From Shigella phage ESh20: 64,000 bases of DNA. Position 1 is the first letter of the stretch; each line of letters starts with the position of its first letter. The stretch lies in sequence record ON528730, one strand, 5' to 3'. Both the position numbers and the translations under genes were made by a program. Shown piece after piece: positions 2,694-64,000 of this stretch. The notes beneath the pieces were generated by a model. It saw only the letters and a list, made by a program, of their open reading frames with translations, was not told the origin of the DNA and ran no database searches.

Positions 2694-3429
2694 TATAACC
2701 GACTCCTTTCAACCACTGCTTGAGGTTGATTGCATCATAATTCAATTTCGGATATGAGGTTACATGGAACTTCTCACCATCATAGTACACAATATCCGCA
2801 AGCCATAATCCATTCTCACGGCAGAAGTCTTTATCTGCTTTTGAAGAGATTGGTTCAACTTTAGAAAAGTTTTTAATGCCAAGACTACCAAGACTTCCAA
2901 TCAGTCCTTGGCAGATAACGCATGTGTCAGATGTTACCACAAATAATTCTTTTGCGTCAACTTCTGCAATAAAACTTTCAAGTTGAACTTTTGGAAGATT
3001 AGACTGTTTCATAATCTTACCATCAGACTTGCGAATAATCGCAAACCACTCTTTACCTTCAATAATTGATTGACGCAGGTAACATTCATCACCAGTACGT
3101 TTCTCAATATCAAACATTCGCTGTAAAGCTTCTTGATAGTCGTCTGTGTATTTGAGGTTGTTGTTTTCACAAACAGCCTTGATAGCACCATCATGGTCAT
3201 GCTGTGTCAGGAAAATTAAACCATCAAGTACATACTGCAAATCAGCTTGAGCATCAAGGGTCTCAACAGGGTCTTTGGCTTCTACTGCTGCGACTAACTC
3301 TCTAGCTTCTTCAAGCATACACAGAGATTGACTTTTCAGTGATTCCCAATACTCTGTGCTATATGGTTCTTTTGGGTTATTGCCACAACGTAGATTCCAA
3401 TTTCTTACGGATTCTCTGGAATTAAACAT
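2674..3429 (-). CDS. Hypothetical protein; N-terminal region weakly resembles MazG-like NTP pyrophosphohydrolase
   Basis: Acidic helical motif EEARELVAAVEAKDPVETLDAQADLQYVLDGL recalled as MazG-like; not verified. Confidence 0.35.
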   Translation of the reverse strand: MFNSRESVRNWNLRCGNNPKEPYSTEYWESLKSQSLCMLEEARELVAAVEAKDPVETLDAQADLQYVLDGLIFLTQHDHDGAIKAVCENNNLKYTDDYQEALQRMFDIEKRTGDECYLRQSIIEGKEWFAIIRKSDGKIMKQSNLPKVQLESFIAEVDAKELFVVTSDTCVICQGLIGSLGSLGIKNFSKVEPISSKADKDFCRENGLWLADIVYYDGEKFHVTSYPKLNYDAINLKQWLKGVGYNGFTEH

Positions 3430-6184: not shown

Positions 6185-6322
6185 TTAAGCAGATTTCTTA
6201 GCTGCTTTACGAGCCGTCTTACCCATGCGAACTCGCTTCTGTACATAGTATTCAGCAGGTTTACCAGCAGTTGCTTTCATGGAATCGCCAAATACTTTCT
6301 CGAATGCTTTAGAATGTTTCAT
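6185..6322 (-). CDS. Small basic protein (45 aa), not in ORF track
   Basis: Own translation MKHSKAFEKVFGDSMKATAGKPAEYYVQKRVRMGKTARKAAKKSA; ATGA start/stop overlap with upstream gene. Confidence 0.35.
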   Translation of the reverse strand: MKHSKAFEKVFGDSMKATAGKPAEYYVQKRVRMGKTARKAAKKSA

Positions 6323-6600
6323 GAATCTCTCCGATATATTTCATATTCAAAATGTTTATTAGTCAAGGTAAAGATGTAAACTGTAGATAAACCATCAATC
6401 GCTAATGCAAACTGCTCAACATTATCTTTTGATAAGTGCTCAAACTTTACTTCATGTCCCTTGTTGATGAGTACTTTACCGAACTGCTCTATCTTAGTCA
6501 AGCACTCTTTTACAAATTTTTTTCTACTTTCTTCTGAATAGAAGGGTTCAAAACCCTCCTTCAGATAACTATCAATCAGTTTCGAACGGACAGTCATCAT
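6319..6600 (-). CDS. Hypothetical protein (93 aa)
   Basis: ORF track. Confidence 0.5.
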   Translation of the reverse strand: MMTVRSKLIDSYLKEGFEPFYSEESRKKFVKECLTKIEQFGKVLINKGHEVKFEHLSKDNVEQFALAIDGLSTVYIFTLTNKHFEYEIYRRDS

Positions 6601-15037: not shown

Positions 15038-15289
15038 GTGAGCAATAAAGAGCAAGAAGCTTTAGCAATCTTCAAGAGCGAAGACAAATCAATAGCTTTT
15101 GTCTCAGAGGCTTGGTGCAGGGATTTGGGGTATGATTGGTATATCTTCTTATGCGCTAAGAAAGATGTTAAACCAGTTGATGAAACCCGATTCAAAGAAC
15201 TGTATAATATCTGCCAAGAGGGTTATGAAGAACATTACGAAGGTTCTTTGAATCCTGTAAATTCAAAAGCTTCAGATTTATTTTATTGA
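15038..15289 (+). CDS. Hypothetical protein (83 aa), GTG start
   Basis: ORF track. Confidence 0.45.
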   Translation: MSNKEQEALAIFKSEDKSIAFVSEAWCRDLGYDWYIFLCAKKDVKPVDETRFKELYNICQEGYEEHYEGSLNPVNSKASDLFY

Positions 15290-15299
15290 GAGGTTTGAA

Positions 15300-15545
15300 A
15301 TGTTAAAATTATTGATACCAGCTTTAGTAGTCCTACTGGTTGGATGTAACCCTTCTTATGAGAATAAGGATGCTTCTTACAGACTTCCTCCAGAAATGCA
15401 AGACTGCAAGATTTATAAACTTAATGGTGATGCCATTAGCAGGGATGTTATTGTAGTTCGCTGCCCAAATTCTCAGACGACAACTTCTTACAAGTATGGG
15501 AAGAATAGTCAGTCACACACCACAGTTTTTGATGGGGGATATTAA
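15300..15545 (+). CDS. Putative small lipoprotein
   Basis: Signal peptide with lipobox MLKLLIPALVVLLVGC. Confidence 0.55.
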   Translation: MLKLLIPALVVLLVGCNPSYENKDASYRLPPEMQDCKIYKLNGDAISRDVIVVRCPNSQTTTSYKYGKNSQSHTTVFDGGY

Positions 15546-15546
15546 T

Positions 15547-15753
15547 ATGCAGGTTCTGGTAAACTTTATCTATAAGTATGAAAACATCTTCAGCACTATG
15601 ACTGTAGCTCAACGCAATCCAGTTATTCCACGAGAAGGGGAGACTGTTGGGATTAATGATTGGAACTACAGAGTTGAAGAGGTCAAGCATAAACTTAAAG
15701 ATGGTTATGACCACCAAGTTGTAAATGTGTATTTAAAAGGTAAGTGGCAATGA
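15547..15753 (+). CDS. Hypothetical protein (68 aa)
   Basis: Start moved to ATG 15547 to avoid overlap with lipoprotein gene; ATGA overlap downstream. Confidence 0.4.
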   Translation: MQVLVNFIYKYENIFSTMTVAQRNPVIPREGETVGINDWNYRVEEVKHKLKDGYDHQVVNVYLKGKWQ

Positions 15754-16283
15754 GTGAAAAAAGGTTATTCAAAGAGTCCTACAGTAATCTGAAGATGGGT
15801 TATCAAGGCTACTCAATACCTTGGTATGAAGATAAGAAAAAACAGTATTCAAACCCTTTTATATATCAACCTGTAAAACTCTCTGTACTGGAGTTTTGGC
15901 ATGAAACTGGAGCTACGCCATACCAATTTGACAACATGGAATATGCGCGTATTTGTAAAAGTCTTGGTGCAAGACAAGTTGATAATATCATTGAACATTT
16001 GAAGGATTTGTATAAAGATTTTGCTGGATACTTATACGAGAAACAGTTTGGGGAGTGCTTAAAATACCCAGATGGGTCACTTGTTCTGCTCTCATACATG
16101 TCTAATGGTAACATAAAAATTGCATACAAAGACCTGTGTGATAACTACTATGATTTTTATACTAGATTGAGACTACCATACCCAGATAGCTCCTTTTCCT
16201 TATCTAGCAATGCAATGACGCACTCTGGGAATATTGTTTCTGTTGAAAAATTAAAAAAGACGTGGGAGAAGAAAAATAAATGA
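15750..16283 (+). CDS. Hypothetical protein (about 177 aa)
   Basis: ORF track (ATG at 15750 preferred over GTG 15744). Confidence 0.5.
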   Translation: MSEKRLFKESYSNLKMGYQGYSIPWYEDKKKQYSNPFIYQPVKLSVLEFWHETGATPYQFDNMEYARICKSLGARQVDNIIEHLKDLYKDFAGYLYEKQFGECLKYPDGSLVLLSYMSNGNIKIAYKDLCDNYYDFYTRLRLPYPDSSFSLSSNAMTHSGNIVSVEKLKKTWEKKNK

Positions 16284-45454: not shown

Positions 45455-45611
45455 AAGGAGAAACCACAATGTATGCCAGAGACATACTGTATAGGTCTTC
45501 CCATAAAGTATAACTCTATAAAAAAGCCCTGTCTAAAAATACTCTCCGGTAGCGAAAGGGAGAATACTCATAGCAGGGCATAATAACTTTGAGAGAGATA
45601 TTAATATAAAT

Positions 45612-45687
45612 TGGAGTATCGGAAGGGACTCGAACCCTCATAAACCTGTTTTGCAGACAGGCACATAACCATTTCTGACACCGACAC
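45612..45687 (-). tRNA. tRNA-Cys (anticodon GCA)
   Basis: Acceptor GTGTCGG/CCGATAC, discriminator U, anticodon loop CUGCAAA, T-arm GAGGG-TTCGAGT-CCCTT, CCA encoded. Confidence 0.7.
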
Positions 45688-45693
45688 ATAATT

Positions 45694-45786
45694 TGGAGGA
45701 AGATACCAGACTTGAACTGGTACGCCGATTTCTCGGTTACTGGCAGTTTAGCAAACTGCTCCCTTACCTTTTAGGGTTAATCTTCC
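45694..45786 (-). tRNA. tRNA-Ser (anticodon GCT), type II
   Basis: 7-bp acceptor, T-arm ACCAG-TTCAAGT-CTGGT, long variable arm, anticodon loop TTGCTAA, 3-bp D stem. Confidence 0.65.
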
Positions 45787-45787
45787 A

Positions 45788-46522
45788 TTATTTGTTCAGA
45801 GCTTCTTTCATCTCTGGAGTTGCGATAGTATCAATCACACCAGTTTTACATGAATCATCAAACCAGCTTGGTAGAACATTCGCAAGGAAACCATTAATAT
45901 TTGTTTTCAGGTATTCTGCAATCAGTGCTGCTTCATCTGCAATCATCTGAGTTACTTCATTAGCATATGCAGTAATCTTTGCAATACCCTCATTAATCGC
46001 TGTAACGGCCTGTGTAGCGAGTTCAGAGATTGTATCTAGTCCTTGGTCGATTGCATCTTGCAAATCGCTTAGAACGCTATTTACAGCGTCTATGGAGGTA
46101 TTAATCAAATCCATCGCTTTATTACCGTACTCGGTAGCTACGCCCATGATACCGCTAAACGGTGTACATCCAACCTGTTCACCTGCTGCCCCCATAACGT
46201 TAGAGTAACCTTTAGCCACTTGCATACGTTGTGAAAACTCATCTACAGACTTTTGTCCATACTCAGTAAGTGTACTTGTCGTTGAAGTTGTACTTCCAAG
46301 GCTTGTTGTGAAGCTTCCTAATAAGGCTGTTGTCAGTCCAGCAGCAACTAAAATCTGTTGTGTAGCTGGGTCTGTTACAGAACTAATTGAGTTAACTAAT
46401 GATTGAGAGGCAGCTATAGTACCACCAAGAACTGCTGCACCAGTAATAAGAGGGTTTGAGAAACCATTACCAGTTTTAAGGAGATTAAAAATCTCTTTAC
46501 TTTGTTCTGTCATCTCTTTCAT
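45788..46522 (-). CDS. Hypothetical protein embedded in tRNA array (about 244 aa)
   Basis: ORF track frame; start moved to ATG 46522 to avoid overlap with tRNA at 46539. Confidence 0.45.
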   Translation of the reverse strand: MKEMTEQSKEIFNLLKTGNGFSNPLITGAAVLGGTIAASQSLVNSISSVTDPATQQILVAAGLTTALLGSFTTSLGSTTSTTSTLTEYGQKSVDEFSQRMQVAKGYSNVMGAAGEQVGCTPFSGIMGVATEYGNKAMDLINTSIDAVNSVLSDLQDAIDQGLDTISELATQAVTAINEGIAKITAYANEVTQMIADEAALIAEYLKTNINGFLANVLPSWFDDSCKTGVIDTIATPEMKEALNK

Positions 46523-46538
46523 TATGCACCTATAAAGT

Positions 46539-46614
46539 TGGTAGCCCATCGGGATTTGAACCCTGTTCTCATGTTTTTCAGACACGCGCTTTAACCATAT
46601 AAGCTAATTGAGCT
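46539..46614 (-). tRNA. tRNA-like gene, tentative tRNA-Phe (anticodon GAA), imperfect T-stem
   Basis: Anticodon arm CGTGT-CTGAAAA-ACATG, T-loop TTCAAAT with only 3 clean stem pairs, acceptor pairing 6/7. Confidence 0.4.
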
Positions 46615-46621
46615 ATTAAAT

Positions 46622-46698
46622 TGGGGTGACCTACGGGAATCGAACCCGTATAGACCATGTTCACAGCATGGGTCATTATCCATTTATGATAAGGCCAC
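46622..46698 (-). tRNA. tRNA-His (anticodon GTG)
   Basis: Acceptor GTGGCCT/AGGTCAC, discriminator C, T-arm ACGGG-TTCGATT-CCCGT, anticodon loop CTGTGAA. Confidence 0.7.
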
Positions 46699-46729
46699 AT
46701 TTAAGGACTCTCGTAAGAACCCTTAGAAG

Positions 46730-46805
46730 TGGCAGCAGTATAAGGATTTGAACCTTAATCTTTCAGCTTCAGAGGCTGGAGCATTGCCAGTTATGCTATA
46801 CTGCT
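46730..46805 (-). tRNA. tRNA-Gln (anticodon CTG)
   Basis: Perfect 7-bp acceptor, T-arm TAAGG-TTCAAAT-CCTTA, anticodon loop CTCTGAA. Confidence 0.6.
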
Positions 46806-46811
46806 AATATT

Positions 46812-46890
46812 TGGTACTCCATATCGGATTCGAACCGATACATAACACAGATTTTAAATCTGGCCTCTCTGCCAATTGGAGTAATGGAGC
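46812..46890 (-). tRNA. tRNA with Leu-type anticodon TAA (tentative), short variable region
   Basis: T-arm ATCGG-TTCGAAT-CCGAT, anticodon loop TTTAAAA, Leu-like D-loop containing CCAATTGG. Confidence 0.45.
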
Positions 46891-46892
46891 AT

Positions 46893-46968
46893 TGGCGGGG
46901 GATGATGGAATTGAACCATCTTCTTCGATTTCAAAGACCGAGGTTTTAACCTTGTAAACTAATCCCCT
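46893..46968 (-). tRNA. tRNA-Gln (anticodon TTG)
   Basis: T-arm GATGG-TTCAATT-CCATC, anticodon arm TCGGT-CTTTGAA-ATCGA, A1:C72 mismatch at acceptor end. Confidence 0.55.
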
Positions 46969-47194
46969 AACGAACTCTTGAAAGAATATATGCGTTATTG
47001 CAAGTATCCTTATTTTCAGGTAGTGATGTTTCGAAGATAACTTGCTTAAGTTCTAATCCAGCAAAGTTATAAACAATCTTTCTAACTTCTAACGGGTCAC
47101 ATTGCCAACCAACCGCTATAAAGAAAGTATCTCCAAATCTACCTGTTTCAATCTTGTGGTCATCTTTATGTTTTTCAACTATGAGTTTATACAT
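46967..47194 (-). CDS. Hypothetical protein within tRNA array (75 aa)
   Basis: ORF track; fills gap between two tRNAs. Confidence 0.35.
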   Translation of the reverse strand: MYKLIVEKHKDDHKIETGRFGDTFFIAVGWQCDPLEVRKIVYNFAGLELKQVIFETSLPENKDTCNNAYILSRVR

Positions 47195-47212
47195 AATGTT
47201 ACCTATTAAATT

Positions 47213-47289
47213 TGGTGCAGAATAGAGGATTCGAACCTCTAACTAACAACTTCGTAGGTTGCTGCTCTATCCATTTGAACTAATTCTGC
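47213..47289 (-). tRNA. tRNA-Arg (anticodon ACG)
   Basis: Perfect acceptor GCAGAAT, T-arm AGAGG-TTCGAAT-CCTCT, anticodon loop CTACGAA. Confidence 0.7.
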
Positions 47290-47467
47290 AATATCCTTTT
47301 GAGATTCCTGTCTAGCTCTCTTCTTATCTCTTCTGAGAAAGCGTTTACGATGGTCTGTACGCCATTTGTAATAATCTTCTTCACCATCATGTGCTGCACA
47401 GCAGCCACAACTTGCAATTTCAACTTTACCATGTCTACCATAAGGCTTCATAGGAATCTCCTAAAAT

Positions 47468-47545
47468 TGGTGTTCCAAGACGGATTCGAACCGTCACTAA
47501 TACAAGGTTTGAGCTTGCATCCTCTGCCAATTGGGATACTGGAAC
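47468..47545 (-). tRNA. tRNA with Leu-type anticodon CAA (tentative), short variable region
   Basis: T-arm GACGG-TTCGAAT-CCGTC, anticodon arm GCAAG-CTCAAAC-CTTGT, D-loop with CCAATTGG. Confidence 0.45.
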
Positions 47546-47546
47546 T

Positions 47547-47621
47547 TGGTACTCGCTGAAGGACTTGAACCTTCTTCACCAACTTGTAAGGATGGAGCTT
47601 TACCATATAAACTAAGCGAGC
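47547..47621 (-). tRNA. tRNA-Val (anticodon TAC)
   Basis: T-arm GAAGG-TTCAAGT-CCTTC, anticodon loop CTTACAA. Confidence 0.55.
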
Positions 47622-47716
47622 TTTGAAGAGGTCTGAAGCTGTGCCGCTAACTCAACTCCGTGGAATTTGTTACGGTCTTCAGTTGACTCAAGCGGTCTTT
47701 CACTTGACCTCAAAAT

Positions 47717-47792
47717 TGGTGCTCCCACAAGGATTCGAACCCTGATAAGTTGCTTACAAGGCAACCGTAATAGCCAATTATACGATAAGAGC
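47717..47792 (-). tRNA. tRNA-Thr (anticodon TGT)
   Basis: T-loop TTCGAAT, anticodon arm GTTGC-CTTGTAA-GCAAC, acceptor with two G:U pairs. Confidence 0.55.
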
Positions 47793-47798
47793 ATTATT

Positions 47799-47873
47799 TG
47801 GAGCATCCAGAGGGAATCGAACCCTCAACCTCAGTTTGGAAGACTGTAATTTTCCCGTTTAAACTATGGATGC
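47799..47873 (-). tRNA. tRNA-Gly (anticodon TCC)
   Basis: Perfect acceptor GCATCCA, T-arm GAGGG-TTCGATT-CCCTC, anticodon loop CTTCCAA. Confidence 0.7.
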
Positions 47874-47879
47874 ACTAAT

Positions 47880-47955
47880 TGGTGGAGAAGCAGGGAATTG
47901 AACCCTGTACTTAAGTTTGCAAAACTTATGTTTTAACCATGTAAACTACATCCCC
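47880..47955 (-). tRNA. tRNA-Ala (anticodon TGC)
   Basis: T-arm CAGGG-TTCAATT-CCCTG, anticodon loop TTTGCAA, G3:U70 wobble pair characteristic of tRNA-Ala. Confidence 0.7.
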
Positions 47956-47961
47956 ATTGTT

Positions 47962-48037
47962 TGGTACAGGTGGAGGGAATTGAACCCATCATCTTACTGA
48001 TTAAGAGTCAGCCGCATAACCATTTTGCTACACCTGC
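47962..48037 (-). tRNA. tRNA-Lys (anticodon CTT), T-stem with only 3 clean pairs
   Basis: Acceptor GCAGGTG/CACCTGT, anticodon arm CTGA-CTCTTAA-TCAG, T-loop TTCAATT. Confidence 0.5.
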
Positions 48038-48043
48038 ATTAAT

Positions 48044-48120
48044 TTGGTACACCTAGAGAGATTCGAACTCACACTGAGCAGATTCTAAGTCTGCTGCCTC
48101 TTCCAATTGGGCTATAGGTG
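48044..48120 (-). tRNA. tRNA with Leu-type anticodon TAG (tentative), short variable region
   Basis: Anticodon arm GCAGA-CTTAGAA-TCTGC, 3-bp D stem with loop CAATTGGAAGA. Confidence 0.45.
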
Positions 48121-48376
48121 CATTAAATCTTTGTAGAGAACTGCTAAGACGCCAAAGCAACAATGGTATCAAATGCCTTAACAATTCTCTAAAAAGACCT
48201 ATTGGCCTTTGCATAGTCTTGCTTAATCCGGTGACTAGAACCTTTGGAGAGCTTGATACTATCTCTTCTCCGTGACACCTACTAGGTGCTTTACCAGTGC
48301 CGTGTACGCCAATACACGAAGAGGAAACCTGAAACACTTGCTCGAACAAATAGTCTCAGCTTTAAATCTTATTAGG

Positions 48377-48464
48377 CGGTAGATAAAGGAGTCGAACCCT
48401 CACCGTATCTCTACAATGGCAATAGTTTTCAAGACTATTTGGCTTCCATTAGCCGCTACCTACC
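48377..48464 (-). tRNA. tRNA-Ser (anticodon TGA), type II, CCA not encoded
   Basis: T-loop TTCGACT, long variable region, anticodon arm ATAGT-CTTGAAA-ACTAT, acceptor GGTAGGT/ATCTACC. Confidence 0.5.
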
Positions 48465-48477
48465 CCTAATAAGACTT

Positions 48478-48560
48478 TGGCATGGGACGGAGGATTCGAA
48501 CCCCTTTGAGTAAGTTTTGGAGGCTTACGCACATGCCTTAGTGTCTTAACATCGTCCCAT
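48478..48560 (-). tRNA. tRNA-Trp (anticodon CCA), enlarged D region
   Basis: Perfect 7-bp acceptor ATGGGAC/GTCCCAT, T-loop TTCGAAT, anticodon loop CTCCAAA, about 8 extra nt in D region. Confidence 0.5.
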
Positions 48561-48724
48561 ACTATATTTCGAAGCTTACCCTGTTATCTCAACACTGTCA
48601 AGCTTCTTCTCAGATTATTTACATGTTCTGGAAAACATGAGATACAGACCACCTCCTTATGAGATTGACTCTTTCAAGTCAATGCGGAGACCCATAAAGG
48701 TCGTCATAGTAATCTGCTAACTAA

Positions 48725-48843
48725 TTGGCAGTCAAGGTAGGAGTCGAACCTACTTACTATTAAAGGGAGCTACCCTTCAGCAACTATCCGACTTTCGTTT
48801 ATCTCTTAACGCGTATCCAAGATAACTTACTCGTGTTGTCTTG
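48725..48843 (-). ncRNA. tRNA-like element with about 40-nt internal insertion (not a canonical tRNA)
   Basis: CCA-rc and 7-bp acceptor AGTCAAG paired with CTTGACC 119 nt apart; canonical T-arm GTAGG-TTCGACT-CCTAC; no canonical anticodon arm identified. Confidence 0.4.
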
Positions 48844-48854
48844 ACCATTAAAAT

Positions 48855-48931
48855 TGGCACACCCTACAGGATTCGAACCTGTAACTGACGGTTTAGAAGA
48901 CCGTTGCTCTATCCGTTTGAACTAAGGGTGC
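48855..48931 (-). tRNA. tRNA-Arg (anticodon TCT)
   Basis: T-arm ACAGG-TTCGAAT-CCTGT, anticodon arm ACGGT-CTTCTAA-ACCGT. Confidence 0.7.
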
Positions 48932-49178
48932 ATTATCTTTAAAGGCTCTCTTAGAAAACCCTTAAAGATGCCCACTTTATTAATCATACCGTGGGCTAGT
49001 ACGCCAAATTCTTTAACAGGGAGTTGGAATACCCTGCTGGTGTTTAGCCTATTAAGCTACTGCCAGAAAAACATTATCGTTTGCATTTATTTTTAAGTTT
49101 TTAAAATAGACGCTACGCTAACGAAAACTAAGGTTATCTTAAAGTGGTCACATCTGAATGTCAACAACTTTATGAAAT

Positions 49179-49254
49179 TTGGTACTGGTAGGTGGAATCG
49201 AACCACCGATATTCCCTTATCAGGGGAGTGTTATAACCTTCTTAACTATACCAG
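49179..49254 (-). tRNA. tRNA-Ile (anticodon GAT)
   Basis: T-arm GGTGG-TTCGATT-CCACC, anticodon loop CTGATAA. Confidence 0.65.
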
Positions 49255-49256
49255 CA

Positions 49257-49333
49257 TTGGAGGTTCAGGTGGGAATCAAACCCACATTCATAGGGCTTAT
49301 GAAACCCTTGCATTACCTTATCTGCGACTGAAC
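49257..49333 (-). tRNA. tRNA-Met (anticodon CAT), elongator-type (G1:C72 paired)
   Basis: Perfect acceptor GGTTCAG, T-arm GTGGG-TTTGATT-CCCAC, anticodon loop TTCATAA. Confidence 0.6.
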
Positions 49334-49415
49334 CATTATAAGTTGCCCCTTTGTAGAGAACTGATTGAGTGGGTGTTTCCAGCCGCGCATGTGTTCTTCA
49401 GTTAAGGGGCGAATT

Positions 49416-49491
49416 TGGTAGAAGTGGAGGGATTCGAACCCGTCGCCTGTCAGATTAAAAGTCTGCCGCATCACCATTCTGCTACACTTCC
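49416..49491 (-). tRNA. tRNA-Lys (anticodon TTT), same T-stem pattern as Lys(CTT)
   Basis: Anticodon arm CAGA-CTTTTAA-TCTG, T-loop TTCGAAT with 3 G:C pairs. Confidence 0.5.
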
Positions 49492-49914
49492 ATTAAATCA
49501 TCTTTGCAGTAACCTACGCAAACCTTGCTAAAGGGTTTGTAGAGTCATCTCTTATAAGCTAATCTAGAATCATGCTCAAGAGACTCTTCGGCACTCATGG
49601 GACGACTGGTTAGCTCCATAAGTCACTGCAAAGAGGATTACCAGACCGTATTTATCTTAAGTGCTTCCATTACACCAACACGCCGTAACGTGTGAAGGAA
49701 TCGAACCTTCGCCTTTTCTTTATAAGAGAAATAGATTGTTTATTGTTTGCTGTAAACGGTCTTCTGTAAAATTGTTGGAACCAGACCAAGTTTTAAATTT
49801 TTCAAATTAAATTGGCTTGAAATATTAAAATTGCTTGCTGTATTTGGTCTTCTGCTCCTTTAAAGAATACTCGTAAGAACTCTTTAAGGGAGGGGCTAAA
49901 AAGCCCTCTCAAAT

Positions 49915-49991
49915 TTGGCGGTTACGAAGGGATTCGAACCCTCATCATCCTCCGTGACAGGGAGGTATTTTGACCAGTTAAACTACATAAC
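49915..49991 (-). tRNA. tRNA-Asp (anticodon GTC)
   Basis: T-loop TTCGAAT, anticodon arm CCTCC-CTGTCAC-GGAGG. Confidence 0.7.
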
Positions 49992-49997
49992 CTTTAT

Positions 49998-50085
49998 TTG
50001 GTGCGCCGTGAAGGAGTCGAACCTCCCGAGTCATAATGACAAGTGATTTACAGTCACCACCGCTTCCATCTACGGGATAACGACG
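49998..50085 (-). tRNA. tRNA-Tyr (anticodon GTA), type II
   Basis: T-loop TTCGACT, long variable arm hairpin, anticodon loop CTGTAAA, 3-bp D stem. Confidence 0.6.
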
Positions 50086-50154
50086 CATTTTATTCTATTC
50101 AGGCTAAGGACTTGCACCTTACAAATCGGTGAGCAATCGCTTCTCTCCCAAATC

Positions 50155-50231
50155 TTGGCGGTTAGTCAGGGATTCGAACCCTGTACCATTCGGTTAACAG
50201 CCGACCGCACATGCCTTATGTGCTTCCTAAC
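50155..50231 (-). tRNA. tRNA-Asn (anticodon GTT)
   Basis: T-arm CAGGG-TTCGAAT-CCCTG, anticodon arm TCGG-CTGTTAA-CCGA. Confidence 0.65.
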
Positions 50232-50315
50232 CATGTTAGTATTACCAGACCGTATCTTTTCATTTTTTGCCTATAAAAAATTTTAAGTGTTTGCTGTAAA
50301 CGGCCTTCTGTAAAT

Positions 50316-50392
50316 TTGGAGGCGGGTGTAGGAGTCGAACCTACCGATAACATGCTAATGAGACATGTGAGACACCCTTTCTCTATACCCGC
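50316..50392 (-). tRNA. tRNA with CAT anticodon and unpaired position 1:72 (initiator-like or Ile2-like)
   Basis: T-arm GTAGG-TTCGACT-CCTAC, anticodon loop CTCATTA closed by T:G pair, U1:C72 mismatch. Confidence 0.5.
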
Positions 50393-50479
50393 AATTCTTA
50401 ATGACCAGACCAAATCTTTTTTGGATTTCTATGCGCGAAATTGAAAAGTTTGTTTGCTGTAATTGGTCTTCTGTCAAAA

Positions 50480-50557
50480 CTGGCATTCCCGAAGGGACTT
50501 GAACCCTCAAACCACACCTTGAAAGGGTGTTGACTTTACCTAATTTGTCTACGGGAA
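50480..50557 (-). tRNA. tRNA-Glu (anticodon TTC)
   Basis: Perfect acceptor CGGGAAT/ATTCCCG, T-loop TTCAAGT, anticodon arm ACACC-CTTTCAA-GGTGT. Confidence 0.7.
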
Positions 50558-50563
50558 TATAAT

Positions 50564-50643
50564 TTGGTCTCCGTTGAAGGATTTGAACCTTCGACCCCTT
50601 GCTCCCAAAGCAAGTGCTGCTAAACCAAACTGAGCTAAACGGA
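50564..50643 (-). tRNA. tRNA-Pro (anticodon TGG)
   Basis: Perfect acceptor, T-arm GAAGG-TTCAAAT-CCTTC, anticodon arm CTTGC-TTTGGGA-GCAAG. Confidence 0.7.
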
Positions 50644-60566: not shown

Positions 60567-61234
60567 TTATGGGACACCTACTGAAGAAGAGTTGGAAGAA
60601 CTTAACAGATATGGTTCCCCATCTGAAGAGGGAGAGAAAGAACTCAGAAGAATGGGAAGCAATTACTAAGAAATGTTTTAAGGATTTGATAGAGATGAAA
60701 AAGTTTGAACTTGAAAGAAAGTATCTGGTACTTAGCCTAGATGATATCAACACACATCTTGACGAAAGTGAGAAGTGGTCTTTAGACTTACTTGTTAATC
60801 GACTTAAGATGGAACGAGAAGATTCAGGTAAAGAGCCACTTGAAGGTGTCTTTGTCAAGAAGTCTTATCCGTTCTATGAAGATACTTTGAAGAAACTTGA
60901 GATGTATGTTAAGCAGCAGAACCGTAAAGAGTTCTCTATGATTTCTCTTGGTGGACAACAAATGCTGGTTATGGAAGATATAAACCCTAAGAGAACCAAC
61001 AAAGGTGTTTGTATCAAGGTCACAGGTAAAGAAGAATTTGTTGAATATGACATACTCAGACACATTATAGATGGTTTGGGTGTTGTACTGAACATGAATG
61101 AATACCATATTAGTTCACACCCGATTAAGGGTGACCAGATAATGATTCAGGTAAGAGAACGTCATAATGGGTTCACACACTTCTTCCAGACTTCTAAAAC
61201 TTCATTGCAAACTATGCTTAGTGAAGTGATGTAA
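60563..61234 (+). CDS. Hypothetical protein (223 aa)
   Basis: ORF track. Confidence 0.5.
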   Translation: MIMGHLLKKSWKNLTDMVPHLKRERKNSEEWEAITKKCFKDLIEMKKFELERKYLVLSLDDINTHLDESEKWSLDLLVNRLKMEREDSGKEPLEGVFVKKSYPFYEDTLKKLEMYVKQQNRKEFSMISLGGQQMLVMEDINPKRTNKGVCIKVTGKEEFVEYDILRHIIDGLGVVLNMNEYHISSHPIKGDQIMIQVRERHNGFTHFFQTSKTSLQTMLSEVM

Positions 61235-61242
61235 AACTATAC

Positions 61243-61267
61243 AGCCCCTTAATTGGGGCTTTTTATT
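61243..61267 (+). terminator. Rho-independent terminator ending the plus-strand block
   Basis: AGCCCC-ttaatt-GGGGCT followed by TTTTTATT. Confidence 0.7.
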
Positions 61268-61269
61268 GA

Positions 61270-62842
61270 GTAAAATTTACGAAATTTATAATTTTTATAA
61301 AATTTGGGATTCACTCCGTTCATCTTGGGTCACCATGATATGTGATAAAATATCTATACCCTTCTAAACACCCTCTCTAAGCATCATCTCTATATAGTAT
61401 TATATAGTATCTATATAGCCTCTTAGTCCCTAAATAGTGCTCTCTATATAGCCCTCTATAAAGCCTTCTAAGCCTCCCATTAATCAACCCTATACAATCA
61501 CCTTCCTAACCTCTTCCTAGCCCCTTAGGAGCCCCTATACTCATCTTAATCTCTAGGTAAACGATAGTACCCTATATAGCAGAATCACTAGGTATTACTA
61601 AGCCTCTATATAGACTGTTATATAACACTAAACAGGTATTCCCTGTAAAGGCTTATCCTACAAGGTCTAACACGGCACTAACAAGGTCTCTTATAAGCCT
61701 GTTAATTCCTGTTTTATATAAGATAGTGTATAGATAGTTATTCAGAATTATAAAATTTTTATAAAATAGACTAGGTAGTGTTTATTTAGGGGTCTTTGGA
61801 GAATCTGAAAAATATCTACTTAGGATGTATATCTGCTTGGTAGCCCTTAACAGCCCTGTAACATCCCCTTTGCAAAATCTTAAAATATCATTAACAATCT
61901 CTTAACAACTCTCCCAAGCTCTTAACATCTCTTCAAAGTTCTTAACAGTCTCTTAACAGAACTAACAAGAGCTTAACAAGTCTGTAACATTGCTTACAAG
62001 AGTCTAACAAGTTGCTTATAAGTTGCTAAATAGTTAAATCTTAAGAGTTATTTTGTTAAGATAATTAACAAGATGCTAACAAGTTCTAAACCTTTTTAAC
62101 AAGCTATTAACATGGTCACAGTGGTTGTTTACAAACACAACTTCTCTTGGTCTATAGCTCCCTATGCTTCTTAGTGATTCTCTATAAAGCCCTCTTAAAA
62201 GCTCTGTATAGCTCTGTATAGCCTCTTCTAAGGTTCTCCCTAGTAACTACACCCCAACTACCTGTATAGCTCTTTATAGGGCTTTCTAGGGGCTTATACA
62301 GGGACTTCAAAGAGTCTAACAAGCTTTTAACATACCACTAACAAGGATTTAACAAGGGGCTAACAAGTCTCTAATAAGCATAACTATGTAGCATTTGTTA
62401 AGATTTTGTTAAGAGAATGTAAAGGGGGCTAACTTTTACGTTACTTTTACGTTACTTTTACGTTACTTTTACGTTACTTTTACGTTACTTTTAAGCTCTT
62501 TTTAGTTCCCCATAACACATTACTAAGTAACTAGCAAGCCCCCTGTTTAACTATTCACAAGATTCTATCCAGCTTATAAGCTTATACCCTTATAAGATTC
62601 TTTTAAGGCTCTGGAAAGCTCTATAAAGGGCTTTTAAGAGTAGGTTAATATGATTGCTTAAGATGAGATGATAAGCCCGTATAGAGCGTTATAGAGCGTT
62701 TTAGGGATTGCCCTTCCCTTTCGGGTTATGGGCTTATATTTAAGTTGATTTGATAAGAGGATATAGAGTAAGCTATAGAGTTATTGTTCTAAATGTATGA
62801 GATAGATTCTATCGAATCAATGGTAAGATTCTAGGAAGACGT
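61270..62842. repeat. Repeat-dense non-coding region (candidate origin / packaging region)
   Basis: About 1.6 kb without long ORFs; recurring CTATATAG, CTCTATAAAGCC, TTAACA and CTAACAAG motifs, AT-rich near-palindromes, tandem 11-mers. Confidence 0.6.
62432..62493. repeat. Tandem repeat, 11-bp unit ACTTTTACGTT x about 5.6
   Basis: Read directly: aacttttacgttacttttacgttacttttacgttacttttacgttacttttaa. Confidence 0.85.
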
Positions 62843-62864
62843 AAAAAAGCCCCATCTAAGGGGC
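62843..62864 (-). terminator. Rho-independent terminator (minus strand)
   Basis: Minus strand GCCCC-ttagat-GGGGC followed by TTTTTT, downstream of gene ending at 62907. Confidence 0.65.
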
Positions 62865-62906
62865 TGTAAAGGTGTCTGGGGCTATTTGCCCCGTTGCGGC
62901 GACTTG

Positions 62907-63158
62907 TTAGTTATTGAAGCCGTCAACTTCATAGTAAAGCGTGATAAGAGAATCACCCCAATAGTAAGAGGATTTGCCATCCTTTAAGACTTCTTGTTTT
63001 ACTTCTTTCCAGAACCACTCAGATTGATTGTAGTCCTGAATAGTTGCTTTTAGACACATATCAACCATGCCAAAAACATCGCCAGTTCCAACCATATCAA
63101 ATTTAACATCTAATACATGGAAGCCAAAATTGTTAACAGTTGCGTGGATAGTAGCCAT
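62907..63158 (-). CDS. Hypothetical protein (83 aa)
   Basis: ORF track. Confidence 0.5.
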   Translation of the reverse strand: MATIHATVNNFGFHVLDVKFDMVGTGDVFGMVDMCLKATIQDYNQSEWFWKEVKQEVLKDGKSSYYWGDSLITLYYEVDGFNN

Positions 63159-63164
63159 TTTCAG

Positions 63165-63230
63165 ATTCTCCAGTTTAGGAATTTAGGTTAGTGGGGAAGT
63201 CTCCCTCCCCGTTGAAAGTAATATTAATTC
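63165..63230 (-). promoter_or_regulatory. Conserved intergenic element, copy 1
   Basis: Shares TCTCCAGTTTAGGA...GGGGAAG.TC..CCTCCCCGTTGA.AAGTA with copy 2; contains hairpin-forming GGGGAAG/CCTCCCC. Confidence 0.45.
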
Positions 63231-63487
63231 ATTGCTGCATAAGTTGCAAGTCTTTTTTCATTGTATTTTGTAAGAATCTCACAAGATAAAACGTCATATT
63301 TTGCAACGGCTTCAGATTTAGTTAAACCAAAATGGCTTACAATTTCACCATTCATGAATCCGACTACTTCATAAGATTCTGCGATGATTTCACCGTTGAA
63401 CCAATCACTTTCAATACGTTTGCAAAGTTGGATATCTTCTTTGTCAGTACCGATTTGTAACAGGATAGTGATTTCTTGATTATTCAT
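63224..63487 (-). CDS. Hypothetical protein (87 aa)
   Basis: ORF track. Confidence 0.5.
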   Translation of the reverse strand: MNNQEITILLQIGTDKEDIQLCKRIESDWFNGEIIAESYEVVGFMNGEIVSHFGLTKSEAVAKYDVLSCEILTKYNEKRLATYAAMN

Positions 63488-63494
63488 TTTCTAG

Positions 63495-63560
63495 TCTCCA
63501 GTTTAGGATTGTTGGGGAAGGTCATTCCCTCCCCGTTGATAAGTACTTTATAGATTTGTG
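63495..63560 (-). promoter_or_regulatory. Conserved intergenic element, copy 2
   Basis: Same motif set as copy 1, in the equivalent position upstream of the next minus-strand gene. Confidence 0.45.
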
Positions 63561-63898
63561 ATGATTTCGTCAAGGGAATTTTCTAAGTTTTTTAAAGATT
63601 GTTCGTAAAGCCTAATTCCCCTATTTAATGCTTCCCCTAACGTAATTTTAAAATTAGTTGTTGGGTAGTCACTTGTAAAGATGTTTTCCACTTCATAGAG
63701 TGGGTATTGTTGGTTACCCGTTCCCATAGCATACATCCCTGTATAATGGATTGCAATAAAAAGATTATGGGACTTAATAGAGCGCTCATAAGCCATTTTA
63801 AAGCGGTTTAACTCGTTTTTAGTTGCCTTAATAGCCATTTCGTGAATTTCTGCGACTATAGCCATATAATCATTCAGAATGAGAGAAATAGCCCCCAT
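63548..63898 (-). CDS. Hypothetical protein (116 aa or longer; frame stays open upstream to window edge)
   Basis: ORF track; the 102 nt upstream of ATG 63898 are in-frame without a stop. Confidence 0.45.
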   Translation of the reverse strand: MGAISLILNDYMAIVAEIHEMAIKATKNELNRFKMAYERSIKSHNLFIAIHYTGMYAMGTGNQQYPLYEVENIFTSDYPTTNFKITLGEALNRGIRLYEQSLKNLENSLDEIITNL

Positions 63899-64000
63899 AA
63901 AGTTGTTAGCTGTTACCGCTTTTACATTTGGTCGGTGTACATAAAACTTCTTATCTTCCCCTTTTGTGATAACTGCAAAAACTTTGCTCTTTAAGGTAAA

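What the first reader, a model, noticed from the sequence alone, without database searches (positions are those of the whole stretch)
63165..63560. Duplicated about 55-bp intergenic element upstream of consecutive minus-strand genes
Two intergenic regions (63165-63230 and 63495-63560) share TCTCCAGTTTAGGA, GGGGAAG and CCTCCCCGTTGA.AAGTA blocks in the same order, each containing a hairpin-forming G/C-rich inverted segment. Each sits between a stop codon and the next start codon. Repeated structured intergenic elements of this kind can be RNase processing sites, phage-specific promoters or translational coupling elements.
Basis: seen in the sequence. Interest (0 to 1): 0.45.

Follow-up and report, generated by a model that had tools for sequence, protein, structure and literature searches.

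The report
Repeated promoter-hairpin-RBS early-gene cassettes
The two look-alike intergenic stretches are copies of a roughly 100-bp control cassette (a host-type promoter, a small G/C hairpin and a fixed ribosome-binding block) that Felix O1-like phages place in front of most small genes in one region. It is a real but ordinary regulatory repeat, already partly noted in the literature, and it closely resembles the "PeSL" cassettes of T4-like phages.

Summary
No other full copy exists in the window.

The window is a Mooglevirus (Felix O1-like), 99.4% identical to Shigella phage Sf18, and it ends inside an array of small genes of unknown function. In the complete Sf18 genome the block CCTAAACTGGAG occurs 15 times. 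All 15 are on one strand within 7 kb, and each lies 7-9 nt before an ATG.

Each window copy reads: −35 (TTGACG or TTGCAA), 17 nt, −10 (TAAAGT or TAATAT, overlapping the upstream stop codon), (A/T)TCAAC, a GGGG…CCCC hairpin, an A-rich spacer, TCCTAAACTGGAGA, 7-8 nt, ATG. The hexamers and the spacing hold across 78 distinct copies in 7 spacer families.

Relatives gain or lose single ORFs exactly at these elements, leaving chimeric copies: phage SFPB has an insertion at copy A, and Felix O1 lacks the 87-aa gene.

My best reading is a sigma-70 promoter, leader hairpin and ribosome-site cassette that also serves as recombination homology. It is a functional analogue of T4-type PeSLs, not a homologue. 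The Felix O1 paper and the Mordin genome announcement had already noted parts of the repeat. Nothing here is tested experimentally. Interest is low to moderate.

The parts
63568..63573 (-). Copy B: -35-like hexamer TTGACG, inside the last codons of the upstream ORF (homologue of Sf18 gp87)
   Evidence: Consensus scan (TTGACG-17-TAAAGT, 9/12). The hexamer sits at the same fixed offset in orthologues and paralogues.
63545..63550 (-). Copy B: -10-like hexamer TAAAGT. Its TAA is the stop codon of the upstream ORF.
   Evidence: In 78 distinct class S copies, -10 positions 1, 2 and 6 are T, A and T in 100%.
63535..63540 (-). Copy B: ATCAAC, the conserved discriminator and predicted transcription-start region. 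The start is inferred at about 63537-63538.
   Evidence: Invariant at 4 nt after the -10 in the class S copies. The start site is inferred from normal -10-to-start spacing and has not been mapped.
63514..63534 (-). Copy B: hairpin GGGGAGGG-AAUGA-CCUUCCCC (8 bp, one G-U pair)
   Evidence: RNA fold (-17.9 kcal/mol, z -2.6 to -2.9). All 29 distinct class S hairpin variants fold.
63495..63508 (-). Copy B: invariant block TCCTAAACTGGAGA containing the Shine-Dalgarno GGAG, followed by 7 nt and the ATG at 63487-63485
   Evidence: There are 15 exact copies of the 12-mer core in Sf18, all 7-9 nt before an ATG. The Mordin announcement reports it as a 26-bp repeat.
63224..63487 (-). 87-aa ORF of unknown function (phrog_7022), the cargo between copy B and copy A. 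It is absent from Felix O1.
63244..63249 (-). Copy A: -35-like hexamer TTGCAA, inside the last codons of the 87-aa ORF
   Evidence: Sequence. 17-nt spacing to TAATAT. It scores 8/12 against consensus, below the scan threshold. It is conserved at the same offset in Mordin, Moogle, SUSP1 and SFPB.
63221..63226 (-). Copy A: -10-like hexamer TAATAT. Its TAA (63226-63224) is the stop codon of the 87-aa ORF.
63211..63216 (-). Copy A: TTCAAC, the predicted start region (start inferred at about 63213)
   Evidence: inference only.
63193..63210 (-). Copy A: hairpin GGGGAGG-GAGA-CUUCCCC (7 bp, GNRA-type loop)
   Evidence: RNA fold (-16.3 to -17 kcal/mol, z -2.3).
63167..63180 (-). Copy A: invariant block TCCTAAACTGGAGA, followed by 8 nt and the ATG at 63158-63156
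62907..63158 (-). 83-aa ORF of unknown function (phrog_4559), the last gene of the array
62842..62865 (-). Canonical intrinsic terminator (AGCCCCTTAGATGGGGCT plus a T run) that closes the array. It shows what a true terminator looks like in this phage.
   Evidence: It is annotated as a terminator in Mordin and Moogle and corresponds to t23 of Felix O1.

Best explanation
Each copy is a compact expression cassette for one small gene in the small-gene array of a Felix O1-like phage.

It contains a host sigma-70-type promoter. The -35 hexamer lies in the last codons of the upstream ORF, followed by a 17-nt spacer. The -10 hexamer has a TAA that doubles as the upstream stop codon.

Transcription is inferred to start in the conserved (A/T)TCAAC. 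The mRNA would then begin, 3-5 nt from its 5' end, with a 7-8 bp GGGG...CCCC hairpin. After it come an A-rich single-stranded spacer and an invariant ribosome-binding block, TCCTAAACTGGAGA, 7-8 nt before the ATG.

The hairpin most likely acts on RNA. At the 5' end of the cassette's own transcript it would protect against 5'-end-dependent decay. In read-through transcripts from the cassette upstream it would mark or protect the 3' end of the preceding cistron.

Because about 100 bp of near-identical sequence precedes most genes of the array, the cassettes also provide homology for recombination. Recombination between them adds, deletes or swaps single ORFs and leaves one chimeric element behind.

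Shown from sequence: the architecture, the copy distribution, the conservation, the folding potential and the cassette-bounded indels. Inferred: promoter activity, the start site, the hairpin's role and the recombination mechanism.
For: (1) Identity of the genome. The window is 99.4% identical to Shigella phage Sf18, a Mooglevirus of the Ounavirinae.

(2) Distribution. In the whole 90-kb Sf18 genome the exact 12-mer CCTAAACTGGAG occurs 15 times. All 15 are on one strand within 46.8-53.7 kb, each 7-9 nt before an ATG, and there are none elsewhere. Profile searches give the same picture for the window and for Sf18.

(3) Promoter. In 78 distinct class S copies from 40 loci, the hexamers at a fixed offset from ATCAAC are T.99 T.88 G.99 A.71 C.68 A.62 and T1.0 A1.0 A.88 A.77 N T1.0, always 17 nt apart. 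This holds across 7 sequence-unrelated spacer families, whether the -35 lies in coding or in non-coding DNA.

The first element of the array follows a canonical terminator and 500 bp of non-coding DNA, so it must supply a promoter. It has the same layout: TTGACT-17-TAGTAT, then TTGC, ATCAAC, hairpin and RBS block.

Copy B is picked up by the consensus scan.

(4) Hairpin. The window copies fold at -16 to -18 kcal/mol, z -2.3 to -2.9. All 29 distinct class S variants and all 30 class L variants fold far better than shuffles. Class L stems show compensatory changes at 4 of 9 pairs.

(5) Recombination. A gene-order map of five phages shows single-ORF presence/absence, and the same gene preceded by different element classes. 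Phage SFPB has an extra 58-aa ORF inserted exactly at copy A. Window copy A equals the left half of SFPB's left element plus the right half of its right element. Felix O1 lacks the 87-aa ORF and carries one element that matches copy B on the left and copy A on the right.

(6) Timing. Felix O1 RT-PCR found ORFs 13, 16, 20, 21 and 22 of the homologous array maximally expressed at 5 min. The same paper states that the phage has no RNA polymerase and no sigma-modifying genes (PMC3185647).

(7) The cargo ORFs have no known function.
Against: There is no transcription-start, reporter or RNA-end data for any Ounavirinae phage in the searchable literature.

The consensus scan of the 1.3-kb region finds no excess of promoter-like sites over shuffles: 5 versus 3.7 +/- 1.8. 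Copy A's promoter scores only 8/12.

The copies are related by descent, so hexamer frequencies overstate the amount of independent evidence.

Covariation in the class S hairpin itself is weak. The GGGG/CCCC ends never vary, and only one pair shows two-sided changes.

In class L and in the SFPB-type element, the 5' arm of the hairpin lies upstream of the predicted start. The '5' stabiliser' role therefore cannot be the common function of the stem-loop.

Felix O1 ORF23, the homologue of the 83-aa ORF, was scored as maximal at 25 min, not 5 min.
Confidence: 0.7

Rival explanations
1. A purely post-transcriptional element. The array is one long transcript from the promoter at its head. The repeats are intercistronic signals: an extended translation-start block (like the start-associated sequences of Cluster K mycobacteriophages, possibly bound by a phage or host factor), plus a hairpin that stabilises the upstream mRNA segment or flanks an RNase E cut in the A-rich spacer. 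On this reading the -35/-10-like hexamers are incidental.
For: The most invariant part is the block around the Shine-Dalgarno sequence. Its 14 nt are far more than ribosome pairing needs. The Mordin authors likened it to SASs, whose properties match: one orientation, non-structural genes, a few nt before the ATG. The hairpin sits directly after the stop codon and is followed by A-rich single-stranded RNA. The AT-rich sequence gives many chance promoter-like hits.
Against: It does not explain why T-T-G...17 nt...T-A-N-N-N-T is kept at a fixed offset through 7 unrelated spacer families, including inside the coding ends of unrelated upstream ORFs. It also does not explain why the element that must be a promoter, the first one after the terminator, has the same layout. 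The two readings are not exclusive for the RBS block and the hairpin.
Confidence: 0.15
2. The hairpins are transcription terminators or attenuators that insulate each gene from upstream transcription. This is the role claimed for PeSL stem-loops in RB49 and phi1.
For: The stem is G/C-rich and lies right after a stop codon. The stem-loop's position relative to the promoter varies: downstream of the -10 in class S, around the -10 in class L, and inside the spacer in SFPB. That fits a role on incoming transcripts. One PeSL stem-loop reduced lacZ expression as much as a strong terminator (PMC2839356).
Against: No U-tract follows the stem: CCCCAACAAUCC, CCCCACUAA, and in class L CCCCAGAUAAAG. The terminator scan does not call them, although it calls the true terminator at 62865-62848. 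In class S such a terminator would also abort the cassette's own transcript about 25 nt after the start.
Confidence: 0.1
3. A phage-specific (non-sigma-70) promoter, or the binding site of a phage-encoded transcription factor.
For: The long invariant blocks ((A/T)TCAAC, GGGG..CCCC, TCCTAAACTGGAGA) go beyond what a sigma-70 promoter needs. They are confined to one gene array.
Against: No phage RNA polymerase or sigma-modifying gene is reported for Felix O1 or annotated in Sf18. The invariant blocks lie downstream of good sigma-70 hexamers. The hairpin loops vary freely (GAGA, GAAA, AAUGA, AAGCAA, AAGAUAAA), which argues against a loop-reading protein.
Confidence: 0.03
4. A recent local duplication with no function, or a chance resemblance.
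For: Only two copies are visible inside the window.
Against: There are at least 15 copies in the genome, 882 matching places in 242 phage records, and conservation equal to or above that of the flanking genes: 80% versus 60-70% against Felix O1.
Confidence: 0.02

Closest known systems
PeSLs (promoter-early stem-loops) of T4-like phages RB49, phi1, PST/T4 and nt-1/KVP40 (Arbiol et al. 2010, PMC2839356; Comeau et al. 2014, PMC4122927)
   Same: [quoted passage not shown] Both have an A/T-rich stretch, a strong sigma-70-like -35/-10, a stem-loop typically built from GGGG...CCCC, and a Shine-Dalgarno sequence. Both fall into subclasses that differ in where the stem-loop sits relative to the promoter. 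Both occur in many copies, clustered in a variable region of small ORFs of unknown function. In both, indels between relatives are bounded by the elements and the crossovers leave chimeric copies.
   Different: The host phage lineage differs: Ounavirinae of about 88 kb, not T4-like phages. blastn found no match in T4-like phages: all 242 matching records but one are enterobacterial phages, and every listed hit has a Felix O1-size genome. So this is an analogue, not a homologue. The RBS block here is much more invariant. The -10 usually overlaps the upstream stop codon. No U-tract follows the stem. Promoter, terminator and mini-circle activities were tested for PeSLs and have not been tested here.
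Start-associated sequences (SAS/ESAS) of Cluster K mycobacteriophages (Pope et al. 2011, PMC3203893), the comparison made by the Mordin authors (PMC4611695)
   Same: Both are short asymmetric repeats that include the Shine-Dalgarno core plus conserved positions that pairing with rRNA does not explain. Both lie a few nt before the ATG, in one orientation, only at non-structural genes, and often with an inverted repeat just upstream.
   Different: The sequence is unrelated (GGGATAGGAGCCC versus TCCTAAACTGGAGA), as are the host and the phage group. Here the upstream inverted repeat forms a good hairpin with compensatory changes (class L), and a sigma-70 promoter accompanies it. For ESAS the authors argued against an RNA hairpin.
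T4 early promoters and moron-type self-contained gene units
   Same: Both use strong host-polymerase promoters in front of individual small early genes. The class L -35 (G)CTTTACA resembles the GTTTAC -35 that I recall for T4 early promoters (from my own knowledge, not checked here).
   Different: Morons are not flanked by conserved linker sequences. Here the linkers are the conserved part.
5'-terminal stem-loop mRNA stabilisers (ompA-type; Emory, Bouvet and Belasco 1992, from my own knowledge)
   Same: Both have a stable hairpin within a few unpaired nucleotides of the predicted mRNA 5' end, followed by a single-stranded ribosome-binding region.
   Different: The 5' end here is predicted, not mapped. 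Sister classes of the element place the hairpin partly upstream of the start.

Membership tests
PeSL (promoter-early stem-loop cassette) | [quoted passage not shown] | tested here: met
PeSL (promoter-early stem-loop cassette) | Contains a sigma-70-like -35/-10 promoter with an A/T-rich upstream stretch (sequence level) | tested here: met
   TTGACG-17-TAAAGT and TTGCAA-17-TAATAT, each preceded by an A run. The layout is conserved in 78 copies across 7 spacer families.
PeSL (promoter-early stem-loop cassette) | Promoter is active in vivo | not testable with these tools
   Needs reporter fusions or 5'-end mapping. No such data were found for Ounavirinae.
PeSL (promoter-early stem-loop cassette) | Stable stem-loop, typically GGGG...CCCC, at a variable position relative to the promoter | tested here: met
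   Three positions are seen: class S, class L, and the SFPB type inside the spacer.
PeSL (promoter-early stem-loop cassette) | Stem-loop terminates or attenuates upstream transcription | tested here: inconclusive
   No U-tract follows the stem and the terminator scan does not call it. Function cannot be tested here.
PeSL (promoter-early stem-loop cassette) | Many copies clustered in a variable region of small ORFs of unknown function | tested here: met
   15 copies in 7 kb of Sf18 and none elsewhere. The ORFs have no Pfam match, and their PHROGs are of unknown function.
PeSL (promoter-early stem-loop cassette) | Gene gain or loss between relatives is bounded by the elements, leaving chimeric copies | tested here: met
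PeSL (promoter-early stem-loop cassette) | Forms excised mini-circles | not testable with these tools
   Needs inverse PCR on infected cells.
PeSL (promoter-early stem-loop cassette) | Common descent with, or sequence similarity to, the T4-like PeSLs | tested here: not met
   blastn of copy B matches 242 records, none from a T4-like phage. All but one are enterobacterial phages, and every listed hit has a Felix O1-size genome. IMG/VR matches are all on 51-94 kb contigs of that type.
Start-associated sequence (SAS) | Asymmetric repeat a few nt before start codons, in one orientation, at non-structural genes only | tested here: met
Start-associated sequence (SAS) | The Cluster K consensus GGGATAGGAGCCC in a mycobacteriophage | tested here: not met
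   Different sequence and different host.
Intrinsic (rho-independent) terminator | G/C-rich hairpin followed directly by a U-tract | tested here: not met
   The hairpin is present but the tail is AACAAUCC or ACUAACC. The scan does not call it.
RNase III processing site | About two helical turns (roughly 20 bp) of double-stranded RNA (criterion from my own knowledge) | tested here: not met
   The stems are 7-8 bp.
Any curated RNA family (Rfam 15) | Match to a covariance model | tested here: not met
   Only one chance-level hit, E 0.11, far below the gathering score.

The most novel reading that the evidence does not exclude
The cassettes are more than passive homology. They could form an integron-like gene-exchange system for Ounavirinae. 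ORF-plus-element units would excise as mini-circles and reinsert at any other element, possibly helped by a phage protein that recognises the GGGG...CCCC hairpin or the invariant TCCTAAACTGGAGA block. That same invariant block would let one phage factor (a RegB-like nuclease or a translational repressor) switch off the whole array at once.
Probability: 0.15. Interest if true: 0.55.

Novelty: new member of a known kind. Interest (0 to 1): 0.3.

Why it matters
It gives a concrete, testable transcription and translation map for the least understood part of Felix O1-like phages, which are widely used for Salmonella, E. coli and Shigella typing and biocontrol. That part is the array of small genes of unknown function, presumably host-takeover genes.

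It shows that the PeSL design arose, or is maintained, independently in a second lineage of virulent myoviruses. By PeSL design I mean a promoter, stem-loop and ribosome site acting as a portable linker that shuffles single genes. This supports the design as a general solution for plastic early regions.

In practice the cassettes are ready-made, strong, compact expression signals and natural insertion points for engineering these phages.

It also ties together three scattered literature notes as one element: the 57-bp and 39-bp repeats of Felix O1, and the 26-bp 'SAS-like' repeat of Mordin.

Tried and rejected
- Rfam scan of 61200-64000 at a permissive threshold found nothing meaningful.
- Terminator reading: rejected as the main function, because there is no U-tract and the scan does not call the hairpins, while the true terminator at 62865-62848 is called.
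- RNase III site: the stems are too short.
- Further copies elsewhere in the window: none. There is only a promoter-half look-alike at 6510-6463, inside an ORF.
- Upstream mini-ORF. The ATG in the loop of copy B opens 13 codons that end in a TGA overlapping the main ATG. It is absent from copy A and not kept in frame in Moogle, so I dismissed it.
- An alternative sigma-70 promoter using TAAACT inside the RBS block as its -10: no -35 lies at a usable distance in either copy (inspection).
- A loop-specific protein-binding hairpin of the boxB type: the loops vary too freely.
- Formal covariation test on the class S hairpin: only weak support. The stronger compensatory evidence comes from class L copies, which lie outside the window.
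- Function of the flanking ORFs: Pfam gave nothing, and the PHROG families are of unknown function.
- Literature: I found no paper linking PeSLs to Felix O1-like phages and no transcription-start mapping for the group. The phiEa21-4 genome paper could not be read.

Full report
**1. What is in the sequence**

Three small ORFs lie head to tail on the minus strand at the right end of the window. One runs off the window end (63548 onward), followed by an 87-aa ORF (63224-63487) and an 83-aa ORF (62907-63158).

The two gaps between them are 63488-63547 (copy B) and 63159-63223 (copy A). Read in the direction of the genes, they align as: stop codon, AAGTACTTATCAAC or ATTACTTTCAAC, GGGGAGGG, a short loop, CCTTCCCC or CTTCCCC, an A-rich spacer, TCCTAAACTGGAGA, 7-8 nt, ATG.

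The exact 13-mer TCAACGGGGAGGG and the exact 14-mer TCCTAAACTGGAGA occur in the 64-kb window only at these two places. Both copies fold into 7-8 bp G/C hairpins at -16 to -18 kcal/mol, with z-scores of -2.3 to -2.9 against shuffles.

**2. Where the window comes from, and how many copies there are**

The region is 99.4% identical to Shigella phage Sf18 and 83-99% identical to other members of Mooglevirus and Suspvirus. These are Felix O1-like myoviruses of the subfamily Ounavirinae.

The window ends inside an array of about 20 small same-strand genes. In the complete Sf18 genome the 12-mer CCTAAACTGGAG occurs exactly 15 times. All 15 are on one strand, confined to 46.8-53.7 kb, each 7-9 nt before an ATG. 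None occurs in the other 83 kb.

Profile searches agree. There are two full copies in the window (E about 1e-21, spanning 63155-63260 and 63484-63583). A third lies about 70 bp beyond the window end, and about a dozen more lie further up the array.

A pattern scan of IMG/VR found the element only on 51-94 kb contigs of this phage type. blastn of copy B against 50,697 phage records hit 882 places in 242 records. All but one are enterobacterial phages, every listed hit has a Felix O1-size genome, and none is T4-like.

**3. Anatomy**

I lined up 166 distinct copies from 40 loci. They fall into two main classes that share the 3' block (A/C)AATCCTAAACTGGAGA-N7-9-ATG.

*Class S* (78 distinct contexts) includes both window copies. 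It reads: an A-rich stretch, a -35-like hexamer, exactly 17 nt, a -10-like hexamer, 4 nt, (A/T)TCAAC, a GGGG...CCCC hairpin, a spacer, and the RBS block.
- The position frequencies are T.99 T.88 G.99 A.71 C.68 A.62 for the -35 and T1.0 A1.0 A.88 A.77 N T1.0 for the -10.
- The 17-nt spacers fall into 7 unrelated sequence families. All 7 keep the hexamers and the spacing.
- In the window, copy B has TTGACG (63573-63568) and TAAAGT (63550-63545). Copy A has TTGCAA (63249-63244) and TAATAT (63226-63221).
- In both copies the -35 lies in the last codons of the upstream ORF, and the TAA of the -10 is that ORF's stop codon.
- Only copy B passes the 9/12 threshold of the consensus scanner. That scan shows no overall excess of sites in this AT-rich stretch. 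The case for a promoter therefore rests on fixed-offset conservation, not on the scan.
- The first element of the array follows a canonical terminator and about 500 bp of non-coding DNA, so it must provide a promoter. It has the same layout.

*Class L* (69 contexts, none in the window) reads: TAAAGTG, CTTTACA, N, GGGG, stem, -10 (TAAGAT, TAAAGT or TATCTT), stem, CCCC, AGATAAAGAGCTTTACC, RBS block. Here TTTACA-17-TAAGAT forms the promoter, and a 9-bp stem encloses the spacer and the -10. Four of its nine pairs show compensatory changes.

*A third arrangement* has the stem entirely inside the 17-nt spacer: TTGACA-AGGGGTGTAAAAGCCCC-TACTAT. It occurs in phage SFPB.

**4. The hairpin**

All 29 distinct class S hairpins and all 30 class L hairpins fold far better than shuffles.

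Within class S, covariation is weak. The GGGG/CCCC ends never vary, 82% of cells are paired, and only one pair shows two-sided changes. Loops vary freely: GAGA, GAAA, AAUGA, AAGCAA, AAGAUAAA.

No U-tract follows the stem, and the terminator scan does not call it. The scan does call the genuine terminator that closes the array at 62865-62848.

With the usual distance from -10 to start, the class S transcript would begin in (A/T)TCAAC. That puts the hairpin 3-5 nt from the 5' end, which is the geometry of known 5'-terminal stabilisers. This step is inference.

In class L and in the SFPB type, the 5' arm lies upstream of the predicted start. Whatever function all the stem-loops share must therefore act on read-through RNA from the upstream cassette, or on DNA.

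**5. Cassette shuffling**

I built a protein-cluster map of the arrays of Sf18, SUSP1, Mordin, Moogle and Felix O1.
- Single ORFs are present or absent between relatives.
- The same gene can carry different element classes in different phages. For example g12 and g16 have class L in Sf18 but class S in Moogle.
- Deletion of one ORF by a crossover in the shared RBS block would produce exactly this pattern.

Two cases touch the finding directly.
- In phage SFPB, an unannotated 58-aa ORF with its own element sits exactly at copy A. Window copy A is identical to SFPB's left element through the promoter and most of the hairpin. It is identical to SFPB's right element from TCCTAAACTGGAGAATCTGAAAATGGCTACT onward.
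- Felix O1 lacks the 87-aa ORF. Between the homologues of the flanking genes it has a single element that matches copy B on the left and copy A on the right.

The elements are at least as conserved as the genes around them: 80% versus 60-70% against Felix O1, and 89-95% versus 85-92% against Moogle.

**6. What is already known**

- The Felix O1 genome paper lists a 57-bp and a 39-bp direct repeat between genes 15-21. These are the class L core and the class S promoter. The paper offers no interpretation. It states that the phage encodes no RNA polymerase or polymerase-modifying proteins. Its RT-PCR found ORFs 13, 16, 20, 21 and 22 of this array maximal at 5 min, and ORFs 14, 17, 19 and 23 at 25 min (PMC3185647).
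- The Mordin genome announcement reports a 26-bp repeat, CCAACAATCCTAAACTGGAGAATCTA, upstream of 8 genes and calls it reminiscent of start-associated sequences (PMC4611695). The Mordin record annotates it as repeat_region.
- The closest described system is the PeSL of T4-like phages. A PeSL is an intergenic cassette of about 100 bp that holds a strong sigma-70-like promoter, a GGGG...CCCC stem-loop at a variable position, and a Shine-Dalgarno sequence. PeSLs cluster in variable regions in front of ORFs of unknown function and mediate single-gene indels and mini-circle formation (PMC2839356 and PMC4122927).
- I found no paper that connects PeSLs with Felix O1-like phages, and no transcription-start mapping for the group.

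**7. Verdict**

The finding is real. It is best explained as two members of a PeSL-like family of cassettes combining a promoter, a stem-loop and a ribosome-binding block, which drive the individual small genes of the array and serve as recombination linkers. Early timing is only partly supported by the Felix O1 RT-PCR data.

It works like a PeSL and meets every sequence-level criterion I could test. It shows no detectable sequence similarity to T4-like phages and sits in a different phage lineage, so it is an analogue rather than a family member by descent. The RBS block alone also fits the operational definition of a start-associated sequence.

Promoter activity, the start site, the hairpin's role and the recombination mechanism are all inferred. 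The main rival is a purely post-transcriptional intercistronic signal. It is less likely because the -35/17/-10 geometry holds through unrelated spacers.

This is a tidy but ordinary regulatory repeat, parts of which have been published, so interest is low to moderate.

Noticed in passing
window 61235-62906: About 1.67 kb without ORFs lies between the two convergent gene arrays. It is full of short repeats: the 11-bp tandem ACTTTTACGTT x6 at 62432-62497, TATAGAGCGT x2 near 62680-62699, and several CT(G/A)TATAG motifs. Several deposited relatives (Sf14, Sf16, Sf17, Sf19, mistaenkt) begin or end their records within a few hundred bp of this place. It may hold the physical genome end or terminal repeat, or an origin.
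   Followed up: no
window 6463-6510 (minus strand): TTGACT-17-TAAAGT-ACTC-ATCAAC matches the promoter half of the class S element, with no hairpin and no RBS block. It lies inside the 93-aa ORF 6319-6600, in the replication module. It may be an internal promoter of the same type.
   Followed up: partly
window 62842-62865 (minus strand): A canonical intrinsic terminator (AGCCCCTTAGATGGGGCT plus a T run) ends the small-gene array. It is conserved, annotated in Mordin and Moogle, and corresponds to t23 of Felix O1.
   Followed up: yes
L002 (Sf18), class L elements, e.g. L002 10020-10104, 11546-11630, 14313-14403: Each class L element carries two 12-bp inverted repeats, TAAAG-NG-CTTTA. One overlaps the -35 and one lies just after the predicted start. 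They look like paired operators for a dimeric DNA-binding protein, possibly for shutting off these promoters.
   Followed up: no
window 63484-63525 (minus strand): The loop of copy B's hairpin contains an ATG (63525-63523). It opens a 13-codon frame whose TGA overlaps the ATG of the 87-aa ORF. The frame is absent from copy A and is not kept in Moogle, so it is probably meaningless. Felix O1 ORF19 is annotated as starting from the equivalent loop ATG, which may be a mis-called start.
   Followed up: partly
L041 (Shigella phage SFPB) 695-871, minus strand: An unannotated 58-aa ORF with no PHROG or Pfam match is inserted as a complete cassette between the homologues of the 87-aa and 83-aa ORFs. 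A third element type follows it, with its stem-loop inside the promoter spacer.
   Followed up: yes
L002 (Sf18) 15251-15754, and L005 (Felix O1) 2917-3423: The 500-bp non-coding leader of the array, just after a terminator, holds 3-4 copies of an approximately 35-bp repeat (…CTCCAAAGGGAAAATTCATTTTCAA.TGTGCAGGT…) and a C-rich tract (CCCCACCACCCCCTCTTACTCCCC). These lie upstream of two strong promoter-like sites. Their function is unknown.
   Followed up: no
window 45600-50600: The largest 'repeat families' reported by the repeat finder in the window are tRNA genes on the minus strand. They match the cluster of about 25 tRNAs annotated in Sf18.
   Followed up: partly
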